This document shows, one piece after another, positions 8,982-53,538 of a stretch of 64,000 bases of DNA. Location: positions 1-64,000 of the IMG/VR virus record IMGVR_UViG_3300010356_001624. The stretch is one strand, 5' to 3'. The position numbers were made by a program, and so were the translations under genes. Below the pieces are notes generated by a model. That model saw only the letters and a program-made list of their open reading frames with translations. It was not told the origin of the DNA and searched no databases. The DNA comes from a virus. Taxonomy: Duplodnaviria > Heunggongvirae > Uroviricota > Caudoviricetes. How positions within the stretch are numbered: position 1 is the stretch's first letter; each line of letters starts with the position of its first letter.

Positions 8982-11900
8982 TTAAGACATTTTTAATGTA
9001 TATAAAGCATTTATTTTCAATTGATTGTTTTCATAATTTAATATATTTTTAACGAATTCACCACTTGATTGTAATGTTAAATCAAGACCCAAATCAGCAT
9101 ATACTAAAGGTGTCATTACTCTAGGTACTGGATATTTTAAAATTTTAGTACCCGAAAATTCAGTAATCATTTTATTTGGTGTTATTTTATGTTCAACATT
9201 TAATATTACATATGCACCATTAAACAATGGTATGTTTTCTAATTGAAAATATTGTGTTGGTTGTATTGTTGCATTACCTAACATTGTAACAGTCGCACCA
9301 TATGCCCTATTTTCATATAAATTATATAAATTTTGACCTTTAGGTACTGGCGCTGAATTTTTATCATCACCAACTAATCTTGAAAGTATTTGAATACTTT
9401 CATTAGTTTCAGGATATTCTTTACTATCAATTTTCATGTTAATAAACATGGATTGGTTTTGTTCTCCAAATCTAACACGAAAAGCACGTACTTGATTCCA
9501 AGGAAACGATTTATTTGAATCCATCATATTTCTATTAATATCATCTAAATCATTAACATTCTTTTTTCTATTAAAATCAATTAAATCTTTACTTTCTAAA
9601 TCAACAATACCATCAGTCTTAAAAAAATCAGTGTTTATTGATGGATAACTAGATGACCCACCAATGTACATACAAACAAAATGGGTAGATGGTGAATCGG
9701 GTATAATACCAGTTTTCATTTTAAAACAATCTTTCCAACTATCTTCAGTATTAAAAGTTAAAAAATTTTGTAACGGAAAAAATTCAAAGCCATTTACGAA
9801 CAATAATTGTGATAATGCAGTAAATACCGTAATATCTGGATTATCAAATATATCAATAAGTGCTTCAACATTAATAATAGTATCACCAATTGGATTCATT
9901 GCTCTATCAACAAAAGCAAAAGAATCAATCAAATTTTTACCTTTTGGGTTGAAAGGATAACCATTTTGTTCTTTATTACCACCACTCAACCATTTATCGT
10001 TTATGTTTTTAAATGAATAATATGTTTGTGTTATTATATCTATATCACCCCTAATTTCGTCATATTTTTTTTCTTCCTTTTCTAATTCTTTTTTTCTTTC
10101 ATCAATTTCTCTTTTTAATTTACTAAAAAAATTTTCAAAAAATAAAATATTTATCCTTTTTTTGTTGTTATCGTTATTAATTACATCTAATGATTCATAA
10201 TATGTTTTAAAATCATTTGAATTTTTTGGTTGAAATGTTGATTGATAATAATTTACAATATATTTTCTCTCCATTAATATTTTAATGATATTATCAAAAA
10301 ATTCTCCCTTATTATCATAACCAACAATATCTTTACCATCAAAAGATGGATTTAACAAATAACTATACACATCGCCATGTTTTCTATCTGTTTTATTGTA
10401 AATTTCTTTTCTTTTTTCTATTATTTTTAAATAACTATTTTTTATTGTATTAAAACTAAAATTTTCAAAATCGTTATATTCTATTTCAAATACTTCTTTA
10501 TCCTTTTCTGACAAATATTTATCAATATCATGTAAATCGGCAAGAATATAATAATATTTATTATAAAAATTTTTTATGGTTGTGTTTCCTGTTAAATAAT
10601 TAATTACAATATTTTTTATATTAATTTCTTTATTTATTTTTACCAATAAACCAATATATAATGGTACAAAAGAAGGTACTTCAATAATTCCAACATTATT
10701 GAAAAGTATATTATTTAATTGGTTTGGATAACCATTAAAAGGACTTAATGTGTTACCAAAATTAGATAAAATTAATAGCGATATAATAATATCATTATCA
10801 TACTTATTAAATTCGTTTTCTATAACCGATTCATTGTAATATAAATCTCTTGCTAATGTTTCTATAATATTTTCAAAATTATAAAAATAATTTTTAATAT
10901 TTTTATTATTTCTTTTGAAATTACCATGATTTATTAAATCATCAATTTCTATGTTTTTATATTCACCATTGTTGATATATAATGTATTTTTAAACTGACA
11001 TAAAAATCTAGTGTTCATACAAATATTTCTAACAATTTTAGTTTCATTATCATTATCAGGCTTATCTTCAAAATAAATTAAATTTTCTTTAGTGAATTTA
11101 AAATATGGTAGTATTGATTTTCTTTTACTTAACTTACTTTTTTTAAATTTATTTACAATTAAATCTAAATCTAATTCAGTAATCTCTGGTGGATTATTTA
11201 TTATTTTTAATCCAACATATGAATCATCATTTTTATTAATTGGAATTTCATATGTTTTTGTAATTGGTATTTTATTTATTGTATTGTTAGGAAAATTAAA
11301 AATGTTATTCTTTTCATCAAATTTTAAATCATGATATTTATCACGAAAATTATTATAGGTTTTTATGTTTTCAATATTTGTTTTCAACACATCAATATTT
11401 TCTTTATTTAATGCTAATGATATGTTAATTGCTTCTGCTTCAGAAAAATAATCAACATAAACACTTATAACTTTTTCATCAGCACCATAAAAATCATTAT
11501 TTAATATTGCTTGTGATAATATATAAAATCTTAATAATAATGTTTTAAATATATCATTACAAATACTATCAGTAGGATTGTATGGATTTTCGTTTATATT
11601 TTCAACGTTATTAAAATGAGAATCTATTGGAGATAATGGAATCCATAAATTAATATCATTATTGCCCTTTTGTATTTTAATTTGGGTATTTTTATTAATA
11701 ATTTTTTGATTTAAAAAAGAATTGATAAAATCATAAACCAAATCTAATTCAGGAAATTCAATATTGTTGTTTTTTAATTCAATTGGTGCAATTCTTTCTT
11801 CTCTATCACCATTATTTTTTATAATCAATGGAAAAGAATATATAGGATAATCAGTATCAAAATTTAAACTGACACTATCCCTTCTATGTGCATTTTCTGC

Positions 11901-13334
11901 TTTTATTGAAGTATCTCTTAGTTTATCAAAAAATTTATCTACATCATCTAATATTATTTTAAATACGTTGTAAATGGTTGGAAGCATACCCAATTCATTT
12001 TTTACTGCTTGATTTACAGAACTAATTAAATTTAAATTTAATAAATTTTTATTGTTAATATGATTTCCTCTTTTTTCAACAACCTTTTTATAAAAATCAG
12101 TAATATCTAATTCAACATATTCAGTTTTTATATTAACTATTGGTGATATACAACGATTACCAAAAAACGTTGTTGAATTTGGTATATCATTATTATTTGA
12201 ACTTGGAAATAAACTAATTAGCGTTTTTTTATATTTATTTAATGCAATAATTTTATTTTCTTTACTATCTAAAAAATTTAAATTGTTGTATGGTTTATTA
12301 TCATTTTCTTCTGTATACATAATTTTATTAACATATACAATTGATAATCTATTTTCATTTGTTGTTTTATTTTTTATTATGTCATCATATTCAAACAAAC
12401 CATTAATCAATCTAATTAATATACTATTATCATATGTTTCTGATAATGGTGTTGTTGTGGTTTCTTTTATTACAAGAAAAACATCACCATTTGTTTTTAA
12501 AGATATATTGTTTTTTATATTATTTATCGTATCAATTATTAAATTAATATTATCTAATTCTTTATTAACATCAACAAGTTGATTATATTCCTTAGTATTT
12601 TTTATATTATCGTTAACAATTGAATATAAATTTTTTATTTTTGTAAGTAATGAGTTTGTGTTTACTGGTATAATACTAGCATCTGGATTTGATTCATTTA
12701 CTTCATTAATAAGTGGCATATTAACAATATATCTAAATAAAATATCATTTAATGGTGCAAATGTCATGGCAACAAAACTTGCATCTATTACAAAATTACC
12801 TGTTTCTGATTGAAATTCTGATGTATATTTTGTTAAATGTAAATCATAAATAATTGGTTTACCATAATATCCTTTAATTGTTAATCTAAATGTTGGCGGT
12901 GGAAAATCAAAAATTATTCTATATGGTGAATTTTCTTGATTAAAAAATGATAATCCTCTAATATCAACAAATTGTATATTAACTTGTGGTATATATGATG
13001 AATTTATTTTTACATTAATATTACTAATACCAAAACTATCAAATGTTGTTTTTTTTCCTGTACTACCGTCATAATAATTAGTAGTAAATTTTAATTTATT
13101 TAGATTATTATTATCGTCTTGATTATTACCCAATAAATTAATTTTTATTAAATCTTCTGTTGTTGAAGAACTACCATTAATTTCTATTACTGTTCTACCT
13201 TTACGTTTCGCAATTAATTCCACAAAAATATACATATTTTGATATTGTGGAATACTATTAACAATTCTATTGTTAATGTTAAAAGTATTGGGGTCAATTA
13301 AAATGACATTACTAGTACCATCACTCATTTTCAA
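8982..13334 (-). CDS. very large (1450 aa) putative virion or ejection protein of unknown function
   Basis: Long uninterrupted ORF followed immediately by the SLT gene, embedded in the head-gene cluster on the opposite strand. Confidence 0.6.
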   Translation of the reverse strand: MKMSDGTSNVILIDPNTFNINNRIVNSIPQYQNMYIFVELIAKRKGRTVIEINGSSSTTEDLIKINLLGNNQDDNNNLNKLKFTTNYYDGSTGKKTTFDSFGISNINVKINSSYIPQVNIQFVDIRGLSFFNQENSPYRIIFDFPPPTFRLTIKGYYGKPIIYDLHLTKYTSEFQSETGNFVIDASFVAMTFAPLNDILFRYIVNMPLINEVNESNPDASIIPVNTNSLLTKIKNLYSIVNDNIKNTKEYNQLVDVNKELDNINLIIDTINNIKNNISLKTNGDVFLVIKETTTTPLSETYDNSILIRLINGLFEYDDIIKNKTTNENRLSIVYVNKIMYTEENDNKPYNNLNFLDSKENKIIALNKYKKTLISLFPSSNNNDIPNSTTFFGNRCISPIVNIKTEYVELDITDFYKKVVEKRGNHINNKNLLNLNLISSVNQAVKNELGMLPTIYNVFKIILDDVDKFFDKLRDTSIKAENAHRRDSVSLNFDTDYPIYSFPLIIKNNGDREERIAPIELKNNNIEFPELDLVYDFINSFLNQKIINKNTQIKIQKGNNDINLWIPLSPIDSHFNNVENINENPYNPTDSICNDIFKTLLLRFYILSQAILNNDFYGADEKVISVYVDYFSEAEAINISLALNKENIDVLKTNIENIKTYNNFRDKYHDLKFDEKNNIFNFPNNTINKIPITKTYEIPINKNDDSYVGLKIINNPPEITELDLDLIVNKFKKSKLSKRKSILPYFKFTKENLIYFEDKPDNDNETKIVRNICMNTRFLCQFKNTLYINNGEYKNIEIDDLINHGNFKRNNKNIKNYFYNFENIIETLARDLYYNESVIENEFNKYDNDIIISLLILSNFGNTLSPFNGYPNQLNNILFNNVGIIEVPSFVPLYIGLLVKINKEINIKNIVINYLTGNTTIKNFYNKYYYILADLHDIDKYLSEKDKEVFEIEYNDFENFSFNTIKNSYLKIIEKRKEIYNKTDRKHGDVYSYLLNPSFDGKDIVGYDNKGEFFDNIIKILMERKYIVNYYQSTFQPKNSNDFKTYYESLDVINNDNNKKRINILFFENFFSKLKREIDERKKELEKEEKKYDEIRGDIDIITQTYYSFKNINDKWLSGGNKEQNGYPFNPKGKNLIDSFAFVDRAMNPIGDTIINVEALIDIFDNPDITVFTALSQLLFVNGFEFFPLQNFLTFNTEDSWKDCFKMKTGIIPDSPSTHFVCMYIGGSSSYPSINTDFFKTDGIVDLESKDLIDFNRKKNVNDLDDINRNMMDSNKSFPWNQVRAFRVRFGEQNQSMFINMKIDSKEYPETNESIQILSRLVGDDKNSAPVPKGQNLYNLYENRAYGATVTMLGNATIQPTQYFQLENIPLFNGAYVILNVEHKITPNKMITEFSGTKILKYPVPRVMTPLVYADLGLDLTLQSSGEFVKNILNYENNQLKINALYTLKMS

Positions 13335-18124: not shown

Positions 18125-19582
18125 ATGGAAGCACACCAACATAAAATTAGAATAAAAAAATCAAAAGAAGAAATATTAGATTTTAATTATAAAAACATTT
18201 CTTTAGATAATACAGAAATTAAATTAATTGATAAAAACACTGCAAGTAAAATTATAATAGAATATGAATGGTTAAAAACAATGCCATATATTGTTAAATA
18301 TTGTTTTGGTATATATTTTAATACAGAAAATGGTCAAAAACTAGGTGGTGTTTTAGTTTTTAGTAATGATTATACAGAAAATACTGGTGTTTGGGATAAA
18401 TATGGATTTACAAATAAAATTTTATTATTAAGCAGGGGTGTTTGTTTATGGTGGACACCAAAAAATACAGCATCTTTTTTTATTTCTAGGGTTTGTAAAT
18501 GGTTAAAAAATAATACAAAATATAGAATAATAACAGCAACTGTTGACCCAGCAGCAGGTGAAATCGGAACAATTTATCAATCATTAAATTGGTTATATGT
18601 TGGTGTTATGTCTGGTAATTATTCCAATAATAAAGAAACAAAAAGATTTTCAGTATTAATTGATGGTAAATTAAGATATAGTAGATGGGTTAGAAATAAA
18701 TTGGGTACGATGAAAAAAAATGTTATTTTAAAACACTATCCCAATGCAATATTTTTACCACAATATAGAAAACATAGATATTTTTATTTTATAGACACAC
18801 CAAGAAATAATAAAAAACATAAAACATCTATAAATCATTTAATATTACCATATCCTAAAAGAAATGATGAAATTATTGGCGTTATTTATAAAATAAAAAA
18901 CAAAATAAACAACAAATTATATATTGGACAAACAATTCGTTCAATAAATGAAAAAATATTAGAATATAAAAATGGTTTGGGTAATGATTATATTAATAAT
19001 GCATTCAATAAGTATGGTTGGGATAATTTTGAATTTACAATAATTGATACGGCAAAAACAATTCAAGAACTAAACAATAAAGAAATTAAATATATTAGTG
19101 ATTATAAATCAAACCAAAAAGAATTTGGTTATAATATTGAAGGTGGTGGTAAAAATATAATACCAACAAAAGAAACTTTAGATAAAATGTCTATTTCTCA
19201 TTTAGGTATTAAACAATCTAAAGAATGGATTAATAAAAGAATTTCAAAAGCAGGTAGTAATGATGCAAAAAAATACGGTAGAAAAAAAACAAAGCAAGAT
19301 AAATTAATTTTAAGTAAAAATTCTTCTAAATATTGGTTAGGTAAAAACCATACAGAAGAAACTAAACAAAAAATTAGTAAAACAAAAAAACAAATTGGAT
19401 TGTCTGAAAAACAAAAAGAAATAATTTGCAAAAAGGTATTTAAAGTTAATTTAAAAACTAATGAAATTATTGAATTTGAATCAACAAAAAAGGCGAGTGT
19501 TTTTGAAAATGTTAATCAATCCACAATATCAAGATGGTGTAAAAATGAAAAAAGAGTAAATGGTTATTTATGGAAAAATTAA
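18125..19582 (+). CDS. GIY-YIG homing endonuclease with NUMOD3-like repeats, fused in-frame to a ~230-aa N-terminal domain of unknown function
   Basis: GVIYKIKNK...KLYIGQT...R...AFNKYGWDNFEF...KEIKYIS...GYNIEGGG is the GIY-YIG motif set of I-TevI/Seg-like enzymes. KISKTKKQIG and SISHLGIK resemble NUMOD3 repeats. The C-terminus reads ISRWCKNEK. Confidence 0.85.
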   Translation: MEAHQHKIRIKKSKEEILDFNYKNISLDNTEIKLIDKNTASKIIIEYEWLKTMPYIVKYCFGIYFNTENGQKLGGVLVFSNDYTENTGVWDKYGFTNKILLLSRGVCLWWTPKNTASFFISRVCKWLKNNTKYRIITATVDPAAGEIGTIYQSLNWLYVGVMSGNYSNNKETKRFSVLIDGKLRYSRWVRNKLGTMKKNVILKHYPNAIFLPQYRKHRYFYFIDTPRNNKKHKTSINHLILPYPKRNDEIIGVIYKIKNKINNKLYIGQTIRSINEKILEYKNGLGNDYINNAFNKYGWDNFEFTIIDTAKTIQELNNKEIKYISDYKSNQKEFGYNIEGGGKNIIPTKETLDKMSISHLGIKQSKEWINKRISKAGSNDAKKYGRKKTKQDKLILSKNSSKYWLGKNHTEETKQKISKTKKQIGLSEKQKEIICKKVFKVNLKTNEIIEFESTKKASVFENVNQSTISRWCKNEKRVNGYLWKN

Positions 19583-20157: not shown

Positions 20158-23100
20158 TTAAGAGATATCTGTCCAATTTCTATCAAAGATTAATTCATTT
20201 TTTGCTCTTGTATATGCAACATATTCTAAATTTTTTTCTTGTAAAAATTCCCAATTTTTTGTTGTTTTCATTGGTAATAAATCTGGTCTTATTATAAAGA
20301 CCCTATTTGCTTCAAGACCCTTTATTTTATGTATTGTACTTAAGCAAATTCCTTGAATTTCATCACTAAAAATTAAACCAATTTTATTTTTTAAATCAAC
20401 AATACTATTTGATAATTTTGCTAAAAAAAGTAATGTTGTTACTTTATCTTCTAATGTAACATAACCACTATGTTCATTTGGGTTTAAAATACCTTCCTTT
20501 TTTAATTCTTTTCTATATTTAATTAATTCTCTATCCCAAAAAAGAATTAAATTGTCAATAGATTTAATATCACCAATTAATTCAATTAACTGAACACCAA
20601 TATCAGAACCTTTCACAATTGCTTTTTTTTCTTGTTCTAAAAATTCAAAAAATAATTTAATTAATGGTATTGTTGTTCTACATAAAACAAAATCACCACT
20701 TTCTGCTTCTTTTAAAACATTACCATCCCTTACAATACCATCAGGTGCATTGGGTAGTGCTTTTATATCAGGTACAATTTCTTGTGCTTTTTTTATTACA
20801 TTTTTTGAACATCTGAATGACGTTGATAATGGTAGTGTTTTAGTATTTGGGAATTTACTAAACCATTCAAACGCTTTTTCATCTGCTGCATTAAATCCAT
20901 ATATACAATTATGTGTTAATATATTATCAGCAACATATGTTTCGTATTTATCAATTTCTAAAGAATAAACTAAACCAGAATATTTTTCATATTTTAATTC
21001 ATATATTTTTTGAATGTTGTGCAAATTTGCATTTAAACTGCAAATTTGCATTAAATCTGGAATAATATTAATTGCATATATTTCTAAAAAATTTTGATTA
21101 TAATCCATATTCCAATTAGAATTCCATATCGGGTAGTTTGAATTTTTATTAAAATCATTAAATATTTTATCTTTATTTGCTAAATAATAATTAGCATCTT
21201 TATATGCATAATACAAAGAATAGTACGATTTTAAAATCCAAATTTTATTAACATCACTTTTATTCTTAAAAATTTTAAAAAAATCAATCTCATTTCTTAT
21301 TGTGAATATACGTATGTGTTGAGTTTCATCCATCAATTCAAACAAACACAATACAAATTGTAATTGTTTTGTTTTTTTTATTTTAACCAAACATTTATGT
21401 TCTGGTGTATATTTAGATTCACATCCTCTTGAAATTATTTTTATTAAATTTCCATTATAATACCTACAACCAATATTGTTAATTTTACTTTTAATAAAGG
21501 AATTACTTTTTCTATCGTAAGAAATAATTAAATCACCAACATTTAAATTTTCAATATCCTTTTCTGTATTATCATTCATTAATATTTTTGTTCCTTTAGG
21601 TTGACATTGATAATAATCACCAACAGATATTAATCTACCTATATATTTACCAGTAGTTTTATCTTTTTTTATTAATTTTTCTACAATTTTTATTTGACAA
21701 CGATTTAAATCTTGAACTTCATCAATAAAAATATAATCTTGAGGAAACATCCAAATACTACTATCTATTGCTGGTAAATATATCATATCAATAAAATCAT
21801 AATTTTTTCTATCAATTGTTGATTCTTCTAATATTTTTAATATTCTTTTAATATCTTTATTTTCTTTAATTGGTATATTATATTTTTCAGCAATATTTGG
21901 AATAAATTCTGAATTTGTTGTTAATGTTAATCTACATAAATTAACCATTTTTTTTATATTATTTAAATATAAAGAAATATCATCGTTATCATCAAATTCA
22001 TCGTTTAATTTCCAATTTTTTGATTTTGATTGTATTATTTTATCAATTTTAAATTCATCGAATTGTATTTTATCACCATATTTTCTTTTAATTGCAGACG
22101 TACCTAAACCATAAGTTGTATAACATCTAACATATTCGGGTAATTTTGTTTTTAATTCTTCTTGTATGTGTTTATTGAACGCTAAAAACATAATAGATTT
22201 ATCTTTAGGTAATAATTTTACTGCATCAACTATGGTTGAAGTATTGTGTGTGATTGTAAAATCACCCAATAAAAATCTACCATTACCATTTAAAGTAAAT
22301 CCAAAATATAAACCTTGTGATATAATATTTTCTTTTATTTTAAAAGAAAATAAATTATTGTAATTTGTTTTTTGTTTTCTTTTATATACTAAAGGTAATA
22401 TGCTAGTATTTCCATTAATGTCAATTTTCCAAAAAATGTTATTTCGAAAAGAAAATATCTTTTTCTCTTTATATATAAAACCTAAACTTTCACATAAAAA
22501 TTTCAAATTAACTATTTTCCTTTTTGAAATTATTGTTAGTTTGGATGTCCTGTTTTTTTTATTATAATAAACATCAAAAATACCCGCCAAGATTTTTTTT
22601 CTATTTTCAATAGAATTTATTAGATATTTGTCTGGTATTGATAAATGAATATTCTTTTTGTTTTTATCAATATTAAAAATAATACACTTTTGAAAATCAT
22701 CGGAATAAAAACCCTTTTCATATTTTTTATTTAAACAAACACTTGTTTTATTTAAAACAAAAAAAGAATTATCTTTTAACTCCAACAATTTTTCTATTAT
22801 TTTTCTTGTTAACCTAAAATCGACAAATAAAAATTGTTTTATATTATTTTTTAAATTATATCCTAACCATAATCCTAATAAATATGGATTTATTTCTGTT
22901 TTATTTTCTTGAAATTCAACAATGGATTTTTTTAATTTAATATTTTTTAAATAACCATTCCATTTTTTTGAATATTTGAGTTCATTTAGTGGTGTATCTA
23001 ACAAAATTTTAGAAATTTCATTGTAATGTGTAATTACATGAACATCATTACAAACCCAAGAATATCCTATTTCATTTTTTATTTTATATAGTTTACCATA

Positions 23101-23328
23101 TCCAATATTTTTATTCAATACTTTACGAGGCGATGAATCATCACCCATTAAAAAATCACCAATTTTTATATCTTGAACCCTTTTTATTGTTCCATCATAC
23201 ATCAATACTGGTGTATCATATCCAAGACATTTACCTGTACCAGCATATGCTTTTATTAAAATATTTTCAGGTCTTTTTTTTGTAAATAAAAATATTCTTT
23301 CTTGTTCTTTTGTTGGTTTATTAATCAT
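20158..23328 (-). CDS. SF1 DNA helicase (Dda/UvrD-like) precursor interrupted by two inteins
   Basis: Extein motifs: AYAGTGK|...|TSTIV (Walker A GTGKT split), IDEVQD (motif II), VGDYYQ|...|CIYGFNAAD (motif III split) and YVAYTRAKNELIF (motif VI). Confidence 0.85.
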   Translation of the reverse strand: MINKPTKEQERIFLFTKKRPENILIKAYAGTGKCLGYDTPVLMYDGTIKRVQDIKIGDFLMGDDSSPRKVLNKNIGYGKLYKIKNEIGYSWVCNDVHVITHYNEISKILLDTPLNELKYSKKWNGYLKNIKLKKSIVEFQENKTEINPYLLGLWLGYNLKNNIKQFLFVDFRLTRKIIEKLLELKDNSFFVLNKTSVCLNKKYEKGFYSDDFQKCIIFNIDKNKKNIHLSIPDKYLINSIENRKKILAGIFDVYYNKKNRTSKLTIISKRKIVNLKFLCESLGFIYKEKKIFSFRNNIFWKIDINGNTSILPLVYKRKQKTNYNNLFSFKIKENIISQGLYFGFTLNGNGRFLLGDFTITHNTSTIVDAVKLLPKDKSIMFLAFNKHIQEELKTKLPEYVRCYTTYGLGTSAIKRKYGDKIQFDEFKIDKIIQSKSKNWKLNDEFDDNDDISLYLNNIKKMVNLCRLTLTTNSEFIPNIAEKYNIPIKENKDIKRILKILEESTIDRKNYDFIDMIYLPAIDSSIWMFPQDYIFIDEVQDLNRCQIKIVEKLIKKDKTTGKYIGRLISVGDYYQCQPKGTKILMNDNTEKDIENLNVGDLIISYDRKSNSFIKSKINNIGCRYYNGNLIKIISRGCESKYTPEHKCLVKIKKTKQLQFVLCLFELMDETQHIRIFTIRNEIDFFKIFKNKSDVNKIWILKSYYSLYYAYKDANYYLANKDKIFNDFNKNSNYPIWNSNWNMDYNQNFLEIYAINIIPDLMQICSLNANLHNIQKIYELKYEKYSGLVYSLEIDKYETYVADNILTHNCIYGFNAADEKAFEWFSKFPNTKTLPLSTSFRCSKNVIKKAQEIVPDIKALPNAPDGIVRDGNVLKEAESGDFVLCRTTIPLIKLFFEFLEQEKKAIVKGSDIGVQLIELIGDIKSIDNLILFWDRELIKYRKELKKEGILNPNEHSGYVTLEDKVTTLLFLAKLSNSIVDLKNKIGLIFSDEIQGICLSTIHKIKGLEANRVFIIRPDLLPMKTTKNWEFLQEKNLEYVAYTRAKNELIFDRNWTDIS
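20908..21606 (-). mobile_element. intein 2 (233 aa) inserted in helicase motif III (GDYYQ|CIYGF)
   Basis: Begins CQPKGTKILMNDNT...VGDLI and ends YVADNILTHN followed by +1 Cys. The flanking exteins reconstitute GDxxQ(S/C)IYGF. Confidence 0.72.
22243..23229 (-). mobile_element. intein 1 (329 aa) with a LAGLIDADG homing-endonuclease domain, inserted in the helicase P-loop between GTGK and T
   Basis: Begins CLGYDTPVLMYDG (block A) and ends GDFTITHN followed by +1 Thr. Two LAGLIDADG-like motifs are present: YLLGLWLGYN and ILAGIFDVYY. Confidence 0.8.
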
Positions 23329-26694: not shown

Positions 26695-27765
26695 TTACTT
26701 TTTTTGGTCTTTAGATAATCCAACAAACAATTCAAAATTTATTTTAGAATGTGATTGATAATTTACCAATTCAAAATCATCAATTGTTAAATTTGTTATA
26801 TCTTCAAGTGTGTTTAAATTTTTATTAATTTTCATTTTCGGTAATTCAAAGGGCTTTCTTTTTGTTTGATTTTTAATATTTTCAATATGATTAAGATAAA
26901 TATGTGTACATCCACCAATCCATATAGCAACACTTGGAATCATATTACATGCTTTTGCCATTAACATTAATAATAAACTCATTGATGCTAAATTATATGG
27001 AACACCAAGCGCAACATCACATGAACGTTGATACATGTTTAAATCAAGATAAAATTTGGGTATGTTATTTGTTTCCAATAAATCTAAATTTGTTTCAAAT
27101 AACATTTTTGGTAATTTTAATTCTTTTACTGCATATTTAATGCGTTCTTTTTTCGTTAATGGTCTTACAATAAAATGATAAAGTAAATGACAAGGTGGTA
27201 ATGCCATGTTATTAAAATCAGATTTATTCCAAGCATTTATAATATGATAACGACTATATGGATTATTTTTTAAACCATCAATAACATCTTTAACTTGGTC
27301 AATACCATTTTGATTTCTCCATTGATAACCATAAACTTTATCCAAATCACCATATGTATATGTTACATATCTTTCATATGGATGTTCTTTAGTTGGGTTT
27401 GGGTTATTAACTTTTGTTTTTTTTCCTCTTTTTACATTATCAATAAATTCATCAAAAGATATTATAGGTGCGCCTAATTTAACATATTTATCATTATACC
27501 ACCTATAGGCATCATCATTCCATATGTTAACATTATTATTAACTAAATATTTAATATTGGTATCACCACGTAAAAACCATAATAATTCATGTACAATACC
27601 CTTCCAATACATTTTTTTTGTTGTTAGTAATGGAAATCCGTTTTTCAAATCCATTTTTATAGAACTTTTTGAAATTTCTAAAGTGTTTGGCATATTAGCC
27701 CTACCACTTTCTTTTTCAACACCATTTTTTAAAATATTATTAACTAAATTTATATATTGTTTCAT
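26695..27765 (-). CDS. thyA: thymidylate synthase family protein (ThyA-like, long-insert type)
   Basis: GFPLLTTKK, HELLWFLRGDTN, LPPCHLLYHF, QRSCDVALGVPYNLAS and GGCTHIY match the ThyA signature motifs, including the catalytic Cys in the PCH motif and the Asn in PYN. Confidence 0.88.
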   Translation of the reverse strand: MKQYINLVNNILKNGVEKESGRANMPNTLEISKSSIKMDLKNGFPLLTTKKMYWKGIVHELLWFLRGDTNIKYLVNNNVNIWNDDAYRWYNDKYVKLGAPIISFDEFIDNVKRGKKTKVNNPNPTKEHPYERYVTYTYGDLDKVYGYQWRNQNGIDQVKDVIDGLKNNPYSRYHIINAWNKSDFNNMALPPCHLLYHFIVRPLTKKERIKYAVKELKLPKMLFETNLDLLETNNIPKFYLDLNMYQRSCDVALGVPYNLASMSLLLMLMAKACNMIPSVAIWIGGCTHIYLNHIENIKNQTKRKPFELPKMKINKNLNTLEDITNLTIDDFELVNYQSHSKINFELFVGLSKDQKK

Positions 27766-36070: not shown

Positions 36071-38158
36071 TCATTTAATGTTAAGAACATCTGCCACAAA
36101 TTTTATACAATCAGATTCCCCCAACCCTTTATAAAAATAAAAATCTGAGTCGGGTTGGTTTGTGGGAATACCATATAATTTTCCACCATTTAATGGGCAA
36201 GCAACACCACCCCATGATGGTGAGTTTACACCGTTACGATAATAACCCAATTCATTAACATCGATATTAAAAACATCATCAATATATTTAAATCCCTTTT
36301 TCTCTATACTATTAAAACTTTTAATATGGTTTTCTGGTACTTCAATAAAATCAGTCCAGTGTAAATTGGGTCGTATAAATCTTTTGGTATTGATATCATT
36401 TGCTGCAATTGGATAACTATTATCATTAATCGATTGAACTTCACCGCTAATTTCTGTATCATAACTAAAACATGTGTTAATTCTTAACCCACCAAATTCA
36501 GCACTTCTAACATATCCCATTTGTGGAAGATAAATAGAAAAATTTAGCCAATTTGCACCAAAAATTTTTTTATTATCATCAGTAAAACCATTACTCGGAA
36601 AATCATCTGTAGTTTTAATAACACCAACAGTAAAAAACGGGTCTTTTTTTAATCTATTAATTTTATCATCTATTTCAAATCCATTACTAAATACTGCCGA
36701 TTCTGTTCCTTTTTTATTATAAACAACACCGTTAAATTTTGAAACGCTATAAATTTTATTTGATTTAAATGTAAAATGACTATTTCTCCATTGAGATGTA
36801 TTTACAGTTTGATAATTAGTGGTATGTTGTGGTATTTTAATTCTTGTTCTGAATAAAGTAACCGAACGTGTTTCATTTCCAATAACATTTTCAAGTCTTA
36901 GATTAGGTGTGGATAAATCATCTTCAGTAATTTCTAATGTTATAAATCCTTTAAATTCGGTATATATACCACCTTGTGTTAAATCGCTTACTTCAATAAG
37001 AGTTCCTTCTTCATTATGTATCATTTTTTTTCTGTTACAATTAACAATAAAAATAAAATCACCATTCCTTTTATGTGTTGTATATTCAGATGGATTTAAT
37101 AATATCATTTTTTTATAAAGATTATTTATTTCTGTAGAATTGGTTGTATTAATTTCATTATCTGTTACATTATTAGGATAATAATATATTTTTTCGGTTA
37201 TATTACCAATTCTCTTATTTTGTATATTAATACTATTATATTGGTCATTTACTCTATATAATTGACCAATACCAAATTTTTTAAAATAATTACCATTTTC
37301 ATCCTTATTTTGATAATTATTAGCCCATCTTGATTCATAGTCATCAGTAAAAGCACTACCAAAAATAGTAAATTGACCACTAATTGTTGCTTTAATTTTA
37401 AAATCCTGTCTGGTTATTCCAATTTCAAAATTTTCTTTATCACCCCAGAATGGTATTATATCCACATTAATTTCTTGTGTTTCTATATGTGGTAAATCAT
37501 CCAAATTTGAACTTTCTTTTATTTTTGTGTTATTATCAGTAAAAAGATTAGGAGAATATCCTAAATTTACTACCATTGCAGCAGGTGTCATTGAAAATTC
37601 ACCAATATCTGTAATATCAACACTCATATGTACTGTTTGCGTTCCTGTTGGTACACCAAAAATCATATAATCACCTGATTTGTTGGTAACAGCAGTATAT
37701 TTATAATATTTTTTATATACATTAAATAAAACTTCGTTGGTTACTAGTTCTGGTTTTATTGGGAATGAACCAAATGGTTGTTTTGGTTTATAAATATTTT
37801 TTTCTTGGTCTAATTCAGAAACACGTGGTAATAGATTATATCGTTTACCTTCATTATTTAAATCTCTAGGCGTTTCATAAGGATAAATGCTATAAATTTC
37901 ATCATTATTTTTATCTTCTTCATTGAGTGGTATAAATATACTAATTTTTGCATTAGGAATTCCAACATTATCGTTTGCAATAACCCTTCCCACTAAAATA
38001 CCATAATCAGAATTAAAATTTTTATAAGCATCTTCTGTTTTAAATTTTAATGACATAAATTCCAAAGTTTTAACTTTTTGTTCAAGTTTAACTTTTATAA
38101 ATTTATCATTATTTGATGGGTCGTTAATATTAAAAAAAATTCGTTGTGATTTATTCAT
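36071..38158 (-). CDS. hypothetical large protein, possibly a baseplate or tail structural protein
   Basis: 695-aa ORF divergent from the sheath gene. Confidence 0.5.
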   Translation of the reverse strand: MNKSQRIFFNINDPSNNDKFIKVKLEQKVKTLEFMSLKFKTEDAYKNFNSDYGILVGRVIANDNVGIPNAKISIFIPLNEEDKNNDEIYSIYPYETPRDLNNEGKRYNLLPRVSELDQEKNIYKPKQPFGSFPIKPELVTNEVLFNVYKKYYKYTAVTNKSGDYMIFGVPTGTQTVHMSVDITDIGEFSMTPAAMVVNLGYSPNLFTDNNTKIKESSNLDDLPHIETQEINVDIIPFWGDKENFEIGITRQDFKIKATISGQFTIFGSAFTDDYESRWANNYQNKDENGNYFKKFGIGQLYRVNDQYNSINIQNKRIGNITEKIYYYPNNVTDNEINTTNSTEINNLYKKMILLNPSEYTTHKRNGDFIFIVNCNRKKMIHNEEGTLIEVSDLTQGGIYTEFKGFITLEITEDDLSTPNLRLENVIGNETRSVTLFRTRIKIPQHTTNYQTVNTSQWRNSHFTFKSNKIYSVSKFNGVVYNKKGTESAVFSNGFEIDDKINRLKKDPFFTVGVIKTTDDFPSNGFTDDNKKIFGANWLNFSIYLPQMGYVRSAEFGGLRINTCFSYDTEISGEVQSINDNSYPIAANDINTKRFIRPNLHWTDFIEVPENHIKSFNSIEKKGFKYIDDVFNIDVNELGYYRNGVNSPSWGGVACPLNGGKLYGIPTNQPDSDFYFYKGLGESDCIKFVADVLNIK

Positions 38159-50949: not shown

Positions 50950-53538
50950 ATGAGCAAAATGTCACCTGAAGAAGTTAGAAAAACATTTGAAGAATATCAA
51001 AAATTAAATAAAGAACTTCAAAAATCAAGAAAATCTTTAATTAATCTTGGTGATTATGAACGTGCTAGAGCAATTACTGTTGAAATTATTGCAAATAATG
51101 AAAAAATTGTAAATCAATTAAAAAATAATACTAAAGGTTTAACAGACGAACAATTAAAACAATACAATAAATTAATTGATGTTCAAAAAGAATTAAATAA
51201 CGAACTTGATAATGAATATAAAAGAAGAAAACATATTATAAGTTCATTAAAACATAGTTTTGATTTATTAGTAAGTGGTTATAAATATTTACAACAACAG
51301 GATAAAATCATAAAAAATACCATTCTTAATCTAGGAATGAGTGGGAACAAAGCAGAATTAATGCGAGGTTCTTTTGAAAGAAGTGCAATGTTTGTTGCTA
51401 GATTGGGTGGTAATCTTGAAGTTATTCAAACCATGATGACTGGATTTGCCGATGAAACAGGTAGGTCACGTGCATTAACATCAGATATGGTTAAGGATAT
51501 TACTGTTATTGGTAAAGGTACTGGTCTTGGAATTGAACAGGCAACTAAACTTTCAGCACAATTTGAAGCAATTGGTATTAATACAAAAGGTGCTTTAGAT
51601 TATGTTCAGGGTGTTGTTGATACTTCTGAAAGAATGGGTGTTAATACCACAAAAGTATTAAAAAATATTACTGATAATTTTAAAAAACTACAAACCTTCC
51701 ATTTTCAACAGGGTGTTAGAGGTTTTAGAGAAATGGCAGAATATGCTGAAAAATTTAAAGTTGATATTTCCGATGCATTAAATTCTGCTGAAATTGCAAG
51801 AACACTTGAAGGGGCTATTGGTATGGTAGCAAATTTACAGGTAATGGGTGGTGAATTTGCTAAATTGGATATGTTTGAAACACTATATTTTGCACGTAAT
51901 GACCCTGCTAAACTTCAAGCAAAAATTGGGGAAATGACAAAGGGTATTGTTACACTTCGTAAAAATAGTGATGGTACTTTTGAAAAATTTATTAGTCCTG
52001 CTGACCGTGATAGGCTTGCTGCTGCTGGTAAAGCATTGGGTATTACTACGGATAAAATGACAGAAATGGCATTAAGAGCATTTGATATCGGAAAAATGTC
52101 ACAGGAATTATCTGGTATGGGTTTAACAAATGAACAAAAACAACTAATTGAAGGTGCTGCATTTTTTAATCAACAAACTGGTAAATTTCAAGTTCAACTT
52201 GGTGAAGATATGAAAAATATCAGTGAATTAACAATACAACAGGCTAAATCTTTTGCACAAGAACAAAAACTATTAAAAGACCGTGCAAAAGAAGCAATGA
52301 CTTTTGATGAAACATTTAAAGCAACAATAGAAATGTTAAAAGCAGGATTATTACCATTATTAAATAATATAAATAAAGCATTGTTATGGATAAGTAAGTA
52401 TTCAGATAAATTATTTGAAGGAAAGGGTATTGTTATTGCTGCTACCACATTATTTGCTGGTGCTAAATTATTTTTTCTTTCTTCAAAACTTCTTAATAGA
52501 GCATTTGATAATTACATATCATATAATAAATTAAGTTTTAGAAATTTAGCAGCAACTAATTCTGGTGGTCTTTCTAGTCTTTTTAGTAAAAGTGTTGGTA
52601 TTGGTGATTCATTAACACCAACAACAGGAAAAGGAAGTAGTGGTTTAGCAGATATGAGAAGGGGTATTGGTGCTGGTGCTGAAGCAAAGGGTATTGGAAT
52701 GAAAAGACTTGGTACTGGTATTGGTGCTGGTGCTGAAGCAAAGGGTATTGGAATGAAAAGACTTGGTACTGGTGCAGGTATTGGTGCTGCTGCTTTAGGA
52801 ATTGGTGGCGGTGTTGCACTTGCTGCTGTTGGTATTAGTAAACTTGCCGATTCTATGAGCAAATTGGATGAAAAACAATTATCTGTTTTAAAAGGAATTG
52901 CCATGACATTAGCCATTTCGTTTCCTGCTGCTGCTCTTGGTATTGCTATTGCAGGTGCTGCTGGTAAACTTGCTGCTCCAGGATTATATGCACTTAGTGT
53001 TGCTGCTTTAGGAATAGGTGCTGCTGTTGGTATTGCTGCTGTTGGAATAGGAATTATGGCAAAAGGAATTGGTGAAATGATTGAAAAAAGTAAAGGTGCT
53101 GGTGATGCAATGCTTAGTGTTGGACTTGGTGTTAGTGCATTATCATTAGCAATGATGGGTTTTACAGCAGGTGCTTTAGGTTTGGGAGTATTTGCATTAA
53201 CAATGAAAACAATAGCAAAACATGCCGATGCTGTTGAAAAGGTAGGTAATGCTTTTGGTAATATAAAAGCAGTAATGTCTGGAACAAAAGAAGATTTTGA
53301 AGCCGTTGAAAGTGCAGTTAAATTAATTTCAAGTGTGAATACAAATAAAGGTAGTGTATTTGCTGAACTTGCAGCATTATTAAAAACACCTTTAAAAGTA
53401 GAATTTGAAAAAAATACAATACCTATTCAAACTGATGTAACGCTTGAAGTTGATGGTGAAAAATTAATGAATAAATCATTTACGAATAGAATTGCTGTTC
53501 AAAAATCAAATGATGCTAAACTTGGTAAGGTAAATTAA
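50950..53538 (+). CDS. tail tape measure protein
   Basis: 862 aa with a long helical N-terminus, Gly/Ala-rich hydrophobic repeats (GIGAGAEAKGIGMKRLGTG x2, AAVGI...), and a position after the chaperone and before a large tail protein. Confidence 0.78.
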   Translation: MSKMSPEEVRKTFEEYQKLNKELQKSRKSLINLGDYERARAITVEIIANNEKIVNQLKNNTKGLTDEQLKQYNKLIDVQKELNNELDNEYKRRKHIISSLKHSFDLLVSGYKYLQQQDKIIKNTILNLGMSGNKAELMRGSFERSAMFVARLGGNLEVIQTMMTGFADETGRSRALTSDMVKDITVIGKGTGLGIEQATKLSAQFEAIGINTKGALDYVQGVVDTSERMGVNTTKVLKNITDNFKKLQTFHFQQGVRGFREMAEYAEKFKVDISDALNSAEIARTLEGAIGMVANLQVMGGEFAKLDMFETLYFARNDPAKLQAKIGEMTKGIVTLRKNSDGTFEKFISPADRDRLAAAGKALGITTDKMTEMALRAFDIGKMSQELSGMGLTNEQKQLIEGAAFFNQQTGKFQVQLGEDMKNISELTIQQAKSFAQEQKLLKDRAKEAMTFDETFKATIEMLKAGLLPLLNNINKALLWISKYSDKLFEGKGIVIAATTLFAGAKLFFLSSKLLNRAFDNYISYNKLSFRNLAATNSGGLSSLFSKSVGIGDSLTPTTGKGSSGLADMRRGIGAGAEAKGIGMKRLGTGIGAGAEAKGIGMKRLGTGAGIGAAALGIGGGVALAAVGISKLADSMSKLDEKQLSVLKGIAMTLAISFPAAALGIAIAGAAGKLAAPGLYALSVAALGIGAAVGIAAVGIGIMAKGIGEMIEKSKGAGDAMLSVGLGVSALSLAMMGFTAGALGLGVFALTMKTIAKHADAVEKVGNAFGNIKAVMSGTKEDFEAVESAVKLISSVNTNKGSVFAELAALLKTPLKVEFEKNTIPIQTDVTLEVDGEKLMNKSFTNRIAVQKSNDAKLGKVN
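52672..52790 (+). repeat. 57-bp in-frame tandem duplication inside the tape measure gene
   Basis: ggtattggtgctggtgctgaagcaaagggtattggaatgaaaagacttggtactggt occurs twice in tandem. Confidence 0.8.

What the first reader, a model, noticed from the sequence alone, without database searches (positions are those of the whole stretch)
20158..23328. SF1 helicase gene carrying two inteins, one with a LAGLIDADG homing endonuclease, inserted in the Walker A motif and in motif III
The 1056-aa ORF reduces to a ~494-aa Dda/UvrD-like helicase once two in-frame elements are removed. Intein 1 (nt 22243-23229) splits the P-loop as AYAGTGK|C...THN|TSTIV and contains two LAGLIDADG-like motifs, YLLGLWLGYN and ILAGIFDVYY. 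Intein 2 (nt 20908-21606) splits motif III as VGDYYQ|C...THN|CIYGFNAAD. Both insertions hit the most conserved catalytic residues, as expected for inteins. Two inteins in one phage helicase mark a homing hot-spot.
Basis: partly seen in the sequence, partly recalled or inferred. Interest (0 to 1): 0.8.

Follow-up and report, generated by a model that had tools for sequence, protein, structure and literature searches.

The report
Phage helicase with two decayed inteins
A phage DNA-helicase gene is interrupted by two genuine self-splicing protein elements (inteins) at its ATP-binding loop and at motif III, but both have lost their own DNA-cutting enzymes, so this is an ordinary, well-understood kind of selfish element caught in its late, immobile stage.

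Summary
ORF 20158-23328 (-) encodes 1056 aa. Removing aa 34-362 and aa 575-807 leaves a 494-aa UvrD/PcrA-type (not Dda-type) SF1 helicase that aligns end to end with intein-free phage helicases. Both inserts pass Pfam Hint/intein thresholds and keep Cys1, the block-B His, the terminal His-Asn and a +1 Thr or Cys.

The interpretation needs two corrections. First, the LAGLIDADG domain of intein 1 is a relic. Both catalytic Asp are replaced (GLWLGYN, GIFDVYY against GLWLGDG, GIIDTDG in 57 relatives). No LAGLIDADG profile matches it. It is 31% identical to relatives that are 66% identical to each other, while the exteins are about 72% identical in both comparisons. Second, intein 2 is not a plain mini-intein. 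It is a 233-aa deletion derivative of a roughly 304-aa intein, and it has lost every conserved residue of that intein's nested nuclease.

The helicase family is an intein hot-spot with three sites (Walker A, Walker B, motif III), but this allele is probably immobile.

By predicted fold, the nested nuclease of the motif-III intein family looks GIY-YIG-like. It has no Pfam model, and I found no paper describing it.

The exact protein is already in NCBI, labelled only "Hint domain-containing homing endonuclease".

The parts
20158..23328 (-). Whole precursor ORF, 1056 aa plus stop: a UvrD-like helicase interrupted by two inteins. The exact protein is NCBI HPC09580.1.
23230..23328 (-). N-extein, aa 1-33, ending in the Walker A motif AYAGTGK
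22243..23229 (-). Intein 1, aa 34-362 (329 aa), class 1, PI-SceI/VMA type: Cys1, block B NDVH, C-terminal THN, +1 Thr
   Evidence: Pfam PF05203 3.6e-18; PDB sequence matches to Prp8 and PI-SceI inteins; alignment with relatives
22930..23229 (-). Intein 1 N-terminal Hint part (aa 34-133; inner boundary approximate). It keeps 28 of 30 positions that are at least 95% conserved in 57 relatives.
22330..22929 (-). Intein 1 decayed LAGLIDADG endonuclease region (aa 134-333; boundaries approximate). It is 31% identical to relatives that are 66% identical to each other, it carries several indels, and it keeps only 17 of 31 conserved positions.
22855..22884 (-). Relic of LAGLIDADG motif 1: YLLGLWLGYN (relatives have YLLGLWLGDG). 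The catalytic Asp is replaced by Tyr.
22564..22593 (-). Relic of LAGLIDADG motif 2: ILAGIFDVYY (relatives have LLAGIIDTDG/SDG). The catalytic Asp is replaced by Tyr.
22243..22329 (-). Intein 1 C-terminal Hint part (aa 334-362, blocks F and G ...YFGFTLNGNGRFLLGDFTITHN). It keeps 17 of 17 conserved positions.
21607..22242 (-). Middle extein, aa 363-574: TSTIV... through Walker B (FIDEVQDL) to motif III (VGDYYQ)
20908..21606 (-). Intein 2, aa 575-807 (233 aa), class 1: Cys1 (CQPKGT), block B TPEH, C-terminal THN, +1 Cys. It is a deletion derivative of a roughly 304-aa intein family.
   Evidence: Pfam PF14890; TIGR01443; alignment
21073..21348 (-). Intein 2 remnant of the nested nuclease domain, which is GIY-YIG-like by fold in full-length relatives (aa 661-752; boundaries approximate). 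All conserved Tyr/Gly/Arg/Glu/Glu residues are replaced, the S...IPQ motif is deleted, and GC1/2/3 is flat.
   Evidence: fold of relatives
20158..20907 (-). C-extein, aa 808-1056 plus stop: CIYGF (motif III, second half) through UvrD_C and motif VI (VAYTRAK)

Best explanation
The gene encodes a precursor of a UvrD/PcrA-like SF1 DNA helicase from an uncultivated, AT-rich, T4-like jumbo phage.

Two class-1 inteins sit inside the ATPase core. One splits Walker A (GTGK|TST). The other splits motif III (GDYYQ|CIYGF).

After translation each intein should excise itself by the standard four steps: an N-S acyl shift at Cys1, trans-esterification to the +1 Thr or Cys, cyclisation of the terminal Asn, and an acyl shift back to a peptide bond. 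This joins three exteins into a 494-aa helicase with intact motifs. These steps are inferred from conserved residues, not shown.

Both inteins once carried a homing endonuclease: a PI-SceI-type LAGLIDADG enzyme in intein 1, and a GIY-YIG-like-fold nuclease in intein 2. Both nuclease domains have decayed in this lineage through loss of catalytic residues, indels and near-neutral composition, while the splicing parts remain under selection.

The elements therefore most likely no longer home on their own. They persist because only a codon-exact deletion could remove them without destroying an essential helicase motif, and because any stop codon or frameshift inside them would kill the helicase.
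For: The boundaries, and the helicase restored by removing the inserts. The extein-only protein gives UvrD-helicase at 2.6e-21 and PHROG 1967 at 3.5e-88 over aa 1-486, and single-piece tblastn alignments covering 94-98% to intein-free phage helicases.

Hint profiles score above the curated cut-offs.

The splicing residues are retained. In intein 1, 28/30 and 17/17 of the positions at least 95% conserved in the Hint parts are kept. In intein 2, 14/15 and 14/16 are kept. These include C1, the block-B His and the terminal HN.

The nucleases have decayed:
- In intein 1, D124Y/G125N and D221Y/G222Y remove both LAGLIDADG catalytic Asp, and only 17/31 conserved positions are kept.
- Its endonuclease region is 31% identical to relatives, against 66% among the relatives. 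The exteins are 71.7% against 72.9%.
- No LAGLIDADG Pfam hit appears in the window copy at E<=1, whereas relatives carry PF05204 and PF14528.
- Intein 2 lacks about 70 residues in three deletions. It has lost Y104, G115, R131, E135, E156 and the S160...IPQ motif, and keeps 7/18 conserved central positions.

The codon-position GC gradient is strong in the exteins and Hint parts (0.26-0.37 / 0.25-0.31 / 0.07-0.11). It is flat in the decayed regions (0.21/0.20/0.14 and 0.23/0.20/0.18). The frame nevertheless stays open, with a chance probability of 5e-11 and 3e-5 for the two regions.

Family context: three insertion sites with sporadic occupancy among exteins that are at least 70% identical.
Against: No experiment shows splicing. 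Block B of intein 1 has Asn where most inteins have Thr, although all of its relatives share this. Block F of intein 2 has Ser where many inteins have Asp, and this too is typical of its family.

Loss of the canonical Asp makes LAGLIDADG catalysis very unlikely but does not prove it absent. A decayed domain could still bind DNA or serve another role.

I did not predict the structure of either of the window's own inteins.
Confidence: 0.85

Rival explanations
1. One reading: both elements are currently mobile, intein 1 carries a working LAGLIDADG homing endonuclease, and the gene is an active homing hot-spot in this genome.
For: Two LAGLIDADG-like motifs are recognisable at the expected spacing. 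Relatives with intact motifs exist, and occupancy of the sites is sporadic across closely related exteins, so homing does occur in the family.
Against: Both catalytic Asp are replaced by Tyr. 14 of 31 conserved endonuclease positions are lost and several indels are present. No LAGLIDADG or Hom_end profile hit appears at E<=1. The endonuclease region is 31% identical to relatives against 66% among them. The codon-position composition is flat. Intein 2 has lost all conserved nuclease residues and about 70 residues. No alternative-frame or antisense ORF of endonuclease size lies inside either intein.
Confidence: 0.05
2. The helicase gene is dead. The inteins no longer splice, and the ORF is a decaying pseudogene that happens to remain open.
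For: There is no experimental evidence of splicing. Both inteins sit on long branches, at 45-58% identity to their relatives in the Hint parts.
Against: The probability of 1056 open codons in this composition is about 2e-52. The exteins are as conserved as those of relatives (71.7% against 72.9%) and all helicase motifs are intact. Splicing-block residues are kept selectively while the neighbouring nuclease residues are lost. The identical protein occurs on 30 contigs.
Confidence: 0.04
3. The decayed nuclease domains are retained for a new role, such as DNA binding, conditional (stress- or redox-controlled) splicing that times helicase activation, or mobilisation in trans by a nuclease supplied by a co-infecting relative or a free-standing homing endonuclease gene.
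For: The relic regions have not been deleted down to mini-intein size, although mini versions exist in the family (144-149 aa at site a, 146 aa at site c). A free-standing Mom-GIY-YIG nuclease gene lies about 600 bp away. Trans-homing of a defunct endonuclease in T4 is the title and abstract claim of PMC2790892 (listed; I did not read the paper). Conditional splicing of helicase P-loop inteins is the abstract claim of PMC6195587 (listed).
Against: The composition and substitution pattern of the relics looks neutral apart from stop-codon avoidance. Nothing in the sequence points to a specific new function. This rival is compatible with the main explanation rather than opposed to it.
Confidence: 0.06

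Closest known systems
P-loop inteins of ATPases and helicases (DnaB insertion point b, MCM insertion point a, RFC-S; bacterial UvrD listed with 16 inteins): Novikova et al. 2016, PMC4760082
   Same: A class-1 intein is inserted within the Walker A motif of a DNA helicase (here between the Lys and the Thr). The +1 residue is Thr, as that paper describes for the DnaB sites. Several inteins sit in one ATPase core.
   Different: The host here is a phage UvrD-like SF1 helicase family that has three occupied sites (Walker A, Walker B, motif III). I did not check whether the 16 bacterial UvrD inteins in that survey use the same sites.
PI-SceI (VMA1 intein) and fungal Prp8 inteins
   Same: Intein 1 matches the Hom_end-associated Hint model PF05203. 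It also matches Prp8 intein and PI-SceI sequences in the PDB. Its relatives carry Hom_end (PF05204) and LAGLIDADG_3 domains. The architecture is Hint-N, then a two-motif LAGLIDADG domain, then Hint-C.
   Different: In the window copy both motif-terminal Asp residues are lost and the LAGLIDADG profiles no longer match. It is a relic, not an enzyme.
The homing cycle of invasion, fixation, endonuclease decay and loss (Goddard and Burt 1999, cited from my own knowledge; the reference appears in PMC7765530), and inteins with inactive endonuclease domains (PMC8966425; 'decaying or completely degraded HENs' in actinobacteriophage inteins, bioRxiv 10.1101/2025.01.02.630785)
   Same: The splicing domain is conserved. 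The endonuclease domain has mutated catalytic residues and deletions. Relatives with intact domains exist, as do relatives with empty sites.
   Different: Two unrelated inteins in one gene are both at the decayed stage.
GIY-YIG nucleases (I-TevI, Seg proteins, UvrC N-terminal domain, SLX1, T4 EndoII)
   Different: No GIY-YIG Pfam model or PDB sequence matches it. The profile-profile comparison is weak (P=0.003, probability 10%). The domain sits in frame inside a contiguous intein. The papers I could read describe GIY-YIG only as a free-standing gene next to split inteins (PMC2677866). The window copy has lost all of these residues.

Membership tests
Intein (class 1, Hint fold) | An in-frame insertion in a conserved host motif whose removal restores a contiguous, alignable host protein | tested here: met
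   The extein-only 494-aa protein aligns in one piece over 94-98% with intein-free phage helicases. The UvrD-helicase score rises from 36 to 77 bits.
Intein (class 1, Hint fold) | A Hint-domain profile match above the curated threshold | tested here: met
   PF05203 scores 66.8 bits (cut-off 32.1) on intein 1. PF14890 scores 40.3 bits in the full ORF and 37.6 bits on the isolated intein (cut-off 35.8) on intein 2. TIGR01443 scores 19.7 bits (cut-off 15.6) on the C-terminus of intein 2.
Intein (class 1, Hint fold) | Catalytic residues: Cys/Ser1, block-B His, C-terminal His-Asn, and a +1 Cys/Ser/Thr | tested here: met
   Intein 1 has C34, NDVH, THN362 and +1 T363. Intein 2 has C575, TPEH, THN807 and +1 C808. 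The block-B Thr of intein 1 is Asn, as in all its relatives.
Intein (class 1, Hint fold) | Protein splicing actually occurs | not testable with these tools
   This needs expression followed by mass spectrometry or western blot.
LAGLIDADG homing endonuclease (PI-SceI type), for intein 1 | Two LAGLIDADG motifs, each ending in a catalytic acidic residue | tested here: not met
   The motif helices are recognisable, but GDG has become GYN and (T/S)DG has become VYY. Asp is at least 95% conserved at both positions in 57 relatives.
LAGLIDADG homing endonuclease (PI-SceI type), for intein 1 | A profile match to Hom_end (PF05204) or LAGLIDADG_3 (PF14528) | tested here: not met
   No hit at E<=1 in the window copy. 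Both families are listed for its relatives.
GIY-YIG nuclease superfamily, for the central domain of the motif-III intein family | A beta-beta-alpha-beta-alpha core fold | tested here: met
GIY-YIG nuclease superfamily, for the central domain of the motif-III intein family | Conserved Tyr (strand 1), Tyr/x-Gly (strand 2), Arg (helix 1) and Glu (helix 2) | tested here: inconclusive
   In 55 diverse relatives Y7, G18, R34 and E59 are invariant and lie on the matching secondary-structure elements. I could not superpose the structures residue by residue. In the window copy all four are replaced (C, F, F, A).
GIY-YIG nuclease superfamily, for the central domain of the motif-III intein family | Sequence-profile membership (Pfam GIY-YIG clan models) | tested here: not met
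   No GIY-YIG-clan hit in 15 plus 55 members, apart from one Tox-URI2 hit at E=0.13. A PDB profile search was negative. hhalign against a Seg-type alignment gave P=0.003 and probability 10%.
UvrD/Rep/PcrA-like SF1A helicase (host protein) | The UvrD N- and C-terminal domain profiles and motifs I, II, III and VI | tested here: met
   PF00580 at 2.6e-21, PF13361 at 5e-11 and PF13538. GTGKT, DEVQD, GDYYQCIYGF and VAYTRAK align with homologues. PcrA and UvrD1 are found in the PDB. PHROG 1967 matches.
Dda/RecD-like SF1B helicase (host protein) | A match to the Dda/RecD-type profile over the helicase core | tested here: not met
   AAA_30 scores 13.9 bits against a cut-off of 27 and covers only aa 17-67. 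The Dda-like PHROG 325 scores E=1.2e-4 and covers only aa 5-55.

The most novel reading that the evidence does not exclude
The window's intein 2 is a decayed member of a very large, unannotated intein family. That family has at least 1300 clusters at 50% identity and sits almost always in motif III of SF1 helicases, though also at neighbouring sites and in up to three copies per protein. Its in-frame nested nuclease is a divergent GIY-YIG-fold domain. In the papers I could search, the in-frame endonucleases of inteins are LAGLIDADG or HNH. GIY-YIG is stated 'not known to be present in inteins' (PMC2677866, 2009), and it is absent from the in-frame types listed in a 2025 survey (bioRxiv 10.1101/2025.01.02.630785). 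If this reading is right, the family would be a further independent marriage of a Hint domain with a homing endonuclease class, and an abundant one.
Probability: 0.6. Interest if true: 0.55.

Novelty: new member of a known kind. Interest (0 to 1): 0.35.

Why it matters
For the window itself, the value is correct annotation. The gene is a UvrD-like helicase precursor, not a "Hint domain-containing homing endonuclease", which is its NCBI name.

It is also a clean natural example of two unrelated inteins in one gene that have both reached the endonuclease-dead stage. Selection on the splicing parts and neutral drift of the nuclease parts are visible side by side. Both inteins are compact and AT-rich and cut a Walker A and a motif III site, which may interest protein engineers.

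The wider point concerns the family rather than this copy. A phage SF1 helicase clade carries inteins at three catalytic motifs. The motif-III intein family appears to hold a GIY-YIG-like nuclease that has no profile model, so current pipelines miss it.

Tried and rejected
- A DNA-level search of the gene against 50,697 phage records found nothing. Only protein-level relatives exist among cultured phages.
- Sequence searches for the central domain of the motif-III intein found nothing meaningful. These covered Pfam on 15 and then 55 members at E<=10, PDB profile searches, and PHROGs.
- hhalign of the 15-sequence profile against the GIY-YIG domain of the neighbouring Mom-GIY-YIG family found nothing. 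A broader pair of profiles gave only P=0.003.
- An endonuclease in another frame or on the antisense strand inside the inteins, as reported for some actinophage inteins, is rejected. The other sense frames are full of stops, and the only plus-strand ORFs inside the gene are 72 and 65 aa, both straddling intein-extein boundaries.
- The promoter and terminator scan was uninformative: 44 promoter-like sites against 51 expected by chance.
- Rfam and tRNA scans of the window were empty, so there is no group I intron here.
- No other intein turned up in the 20 largest other ORFs of the window.
- The afdb50 fold library was unavailable.
- My regex and BLAST site typing mislabelled some site-a proteins as '?114' or '?135'. 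The occupancy counts are therefore approximate.
Full report
**Observation**

The window holds an uninterrupted 1056-codon ORF at 20158..23328 on the minus strand.
- Intein 1 is aa 34-362 (nt 22243-23229), read as AYAGTGK|CLGYD...FTITHN|TSTIV.
- Intein 2 is aa 575-807 (nt 20908-21606), read as VGDYYQ|CQPKGT...ILTHN|CIYGF.
- The joined exteins are 494 aa.

The DNA here is about 21% G+C and the coding strand has 44% A and 34% T. A stop codon is therefore expected about every nine codons. The chance of 1056 open codons is about 2e-52, and the other two sense frames contain 103 and 168 stops. The feature is real.

**Are these inteins?**

The Pfam results are clear.
- Hom_end_hint (PF05203) scores 66.8 bits on aa 34-87, against a cut-off of 32.1.
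- Intein_splicing (PF14890) scores 40.3 bits over aa 583-807, against a cut-off of 35.8.
- The UvrD N- and C-terminal helicase domains are found on the flanks.
- When both inserts are removed, the UvrD-helicase score rises from 36 to 77 bits and the match becomes continuous over profile positions 13-268.

NCBIfam finds the intein C-terminal splicing region at aa 787-808. PDB sequences of Prp8 inteins and PI-SceI match the start of intein 1.

The extein-only protein aligns in a single tblastn piece, covering 94-98% of its length, with intein-free helicases of cultured phages. These include Chryseobacterium phage MA9V-3 (37.5% identity), Bacteroides phages SJC03/DAC (34%), and Pseudomonas, Xanthomonas and Salinibacter phages. 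261 of 281 records cover at least 80% of the query. In a multiple alignment the motif-III insert falls exactly between GDxxQ and [SA]IYGF, and the Walker A of the homologues reads AG(A/S)GK(T/S)TT.

The motifs are reconstituted and the Hint blocks are present.

Both elements carry the class-1 catalytic set: Cys1, a block-B His (NDVH in intein 1, TPEH in intein 2), a C-terminal His-Asn, and a nucleophile at +1 (Thr363, Cys808).

**What the host protein is**

It is a UvrD/Rep/PcrA-like SF1A helicase.
- PF00580, PF13361 and PF13538 match, and PcrA and UvrD1 are the PDB helicase matches.
- PHROG 1967 'DNA helicase' matches at 3.5e-88 over aa 1-486.
- The Dda/RecD-type models touch only the P-loop and stay below threshold.

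The surrounding genes are a T4-type large terminase, gp20 portal, gp23 capsid protein, tail sheath, T4 baseplate protein and thymidylate synthase. The closest cultured gp23 is only about 31% identical. The identical helicase protein is on 30 public contigs, the longest 240 kb, and is deposited as HPC09580.1 'MAG TPA: Hint domain-containing homing endonuclease [archaeon]'. The source is thus an uncultivated T4-like jumbo phage, probably mis-binned. Its helicase has been auto-named after its intein.

**Family context**

A search with the full protein returned more than 1000 relatives. Mapping their inserts onto the extein shows three insertion sites.
- Site a is in Walker A (GK|T). Its inteins are about 340 aa and carry Hom_end plus LAGLIDADG_3. 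Mini versions of 144-149 aa also exist.
- Site c is in Walker B (DE|CQD). Its inteins are about 355 aa and carry LAGLIDADG_2, or are 146-aa minis.
- Site b is in motif III (GDxxQ|[SC]IYGF). Its inteins are about 304 aa.

Among the 120 best hits the approximate counts are: 55 with a only, 23 with b only, 19 with c only, about 10 with a+b, several with a+c, and two with all three (P0027, P0075). This list is biased towards intein carriers because the query contained inteins.

Exteins 73-78% identical to the window's carry different combinations. P0025 has b only, P0003 has a only, and P0058 has c only. The a+b relatives are more distant, at 51-69%. Such sporadic occupancy is the usual signature of homing and loss, so the family is a hot-spot. 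The locus of the a+b relative P0002 is syntenic with the window: gp23, a GIY-YIG gene, then the helicase convergent with gp23.

**Intein 1 endonuclease**

In 57 full-length site-a relatives the two LAGLIDADG motifs read YLLGLWLGDG and LLAGIID(T/S)DG. The window has YLLGLWLGYN and ILAGIFDVYY. Both catalytic Asp and the following Gly are replaced, at positions that are at least 95% conserved in the relatives.
- Of the positions conserved at that level, the window keeps 28/30 in the N-terminal Hint part and 17/17 in the C-terminal part.
- It keeps only 17/31 in the endonuclease region.
- Against 26 relatives, identity is 58% (Hint-N), 75% (Hint-C) and 31% (endonuclease). The same regions are 73%, 85% and 66% identical among the relatives.
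- The exteins are 71.7% identical to relatives, against 72.9% among the relatives.
- The region carries several indels.
- No LAGLIDADG or Hom_end Pfam model matches it at E<=1, although both are recorded for its relatives.

The decay is specific to the endonuclease domain and to this lineage.

**Intein 2**

This element is 233 aa, against about 304 aa in 28 relatives. Three deletions account for the difference: about 17 aa in a Hint loop, about 37 aa inside the central domain, and about 19 aa in a C-terminal loop.
- Of the positions conserved in at least 16 of 17 full-length relatives, the window keeps 14/15 and 14/16 in the Hint parts.
- It keeps only 7/18 in the centre.
- The losses are Y104C, G115F, R131F, E135S and E156A, plus deletion of S160 and I165-P166-Q167.

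The codon-position G+C gradient is steep in the exteins and Hint parts: GC1/2/3 of 0.31-0.37/0.25-0.31/0.07-0.09 in the exteins, and 0.36/0.26/0.11 and 0.26/0.28/0.09 in the Hint parts. It is nearly flat in the two relic regions, at 0.21/0.20/0.14 and 0.23/0.20/0.18. Residues encoded by AT-rich codons rise to 54-58% there. Yet these regions contain no stop codon, with chance probabilities of 5e-11 and 3e-5.

This pattern is what one expects of sequence under no selection except the need to keep the downstream helicase in frame.

**What the central domain of the motif-III intein family is**

No Pfam, PDB-sequence or PHROG profile matches it.

AlphaFold2 models are confident. The full-length relative (P0025 aa 246-549, 18-sequence alignment) has pLDDT 92.3, and the central 135 aa alone has pLDDT 88.8.

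The model's core runs strand, strand, helix, strand, helix. In 55 diverse members Tyr7 (strand 1), Gly18 (strand 2, in a [FYW]R[IV]G motif), Arg34 (helix 1) and Glu59 (helix 2) are invariant. This is the order of the GIY, YIG, Arg and Glu elements.

A profile-profile comparison with a Seg-type GIY-YIG alignment is in register but weak, at P=0.003 and probability 10%. A narrower pair of profiles gave nothing.

I therefore call the domain GIY-YIG-like by predicted fold, with about 0.6-0.7 confidence. I do not file it as a member of the GIY-YIG family.

A profile of this domain finds 1706 clusters at 50% identity (1302 at E<=1e-10) among 1.84 billion representatives. In the best 150, nearly all sit in GDxxQ|CQP...HN|[SC]IYGF of SF1 helicases. 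Some are shifted by one or more residues or sit at other sites, including DE|...|CQD and QxIY|...|SFRG, with up to three matched stretches per protein.

In the literature I could search, in-frame intein endonucleases are LAGLIDADG or HNH.
- A 2025 survey of actinophage inteins found in-frame HNH, and found Vsr-like and endonuclease VII-like genes only antisense or out of frame. Its one mention of GIY-YIG is in a general list of intein-associated endonuclease types.
- Six phrase searches for GIY-YIG inteins returned nothing.

This is absence of evidence in a partial library, not proof of novelty.

**Mechanism**

The following is shown: the anatomy, the conservation pattern and the family context.

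The following is inferred. The precursor is translated. Each intein performs the standard class-1 splicing reaction, and a 494-aa helicase with restored Walker A and motif III results. Neither intein can cleave an empty allele, so this allele is inherited vertically or by ordinary recombination. The relics cannot be lost except by codon-exact deletion, because they lie inside catalytic motifs.

Alternative views were weighed: active homing, a dead gene, or co-option or trans-mobilisation of the relics. The first two conflict with the data above. The third cannot be excluded and is compatible with the main account.

**Verdict**

This is a new member of a well-known kind: multiple inteins in the ATPase motifs of a DNA helicase, both at the endonuclease-dead stage. 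Interest is modest at 0.35. The more novel lead concerns the intein family to which intein 2 belongs, not this copy.

Noticed in passing
window 18125-19582 (+): A 485-aa ORF directly downstream of the gp23 capsid gene fuses a Mom-family domain (PF25680, 4e-26, aa 31-245) to a GIY-YIG nuclease domain (PF01541, aa 252-331). The fusion is a conserved architecture: dozens of roughly 486-aa relatives at 55-78% identity carry both domains. NCBI annotates only a 324-aa GIY-YIG protein here (HPC09582.1), starting at an internal Met. In the related locus L005 the GIY-YIG gene next to gp23 is a separate 246-aa protein, and a weak Mom hit lies in a different 598-aa protein.
   Followed up: partly
proteins P0121-P0267; not in the window: The nuclease-like central domain of the motif-III intein family is very abundant, with 1706 clusters at 50% identity, yet it has no Pfam, PHROG or PDB sequence match. 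It occurs in up to three matched stretches per protein, in proteins of up to 2536 aa, and at several different insertion points of SF1 helicases.
   Followed up: partly
relatives P0027, P0040, P0051, P0056-P0065, P0075 and others: A third intein site, absent from the window, lies in Walker B of the same helicase family (DE|C...HN|CQD). It holds inteins of about 355 aa carrying LAGLIDADG_2 (PF03161), or 146-aa mini-inteins. Two proteins carry inteins at all three sites.
   Followed up: partly
whole window, 1-64000: The window is a T4-like structural and replication region at 24% G+C. The identical helicase protein is on 30 contigs of up to 240 kb, and the NCBI record is labelled 'archaeon', which is probably a binning artefact for a jumbo phage. 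There are no tRNA genes and no Rfam family hits in the 64 kb.
   Followed up: partly
window 26695-27765 (-): The thymidylate synthase ORF is 356 aa, and its match to the 266-position Pfam profile spans aa 2-347. It therefore carries about 80 extra residues as one or more insertions. That is too short for an intein. Their nature was not examined.
   Followed up: no
window 20285-20302: A perfect 6-bp-stem hairpin (GGTCTT...AAGACC) followed by a T-rich run scores as terminator-like on both strands. It lies inside the 3' part of the helicase ORF, about 130 nt before its stop codon.
   Followed up: no
window 8982-13334 (-), 53995-57246 (+), 50950-53538 (+), 36071-38158 (-): Four very large ORFs (1450, 1083, 862 and 695 aa) have no Pfam match at E<=0.001.
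   Followed up: no
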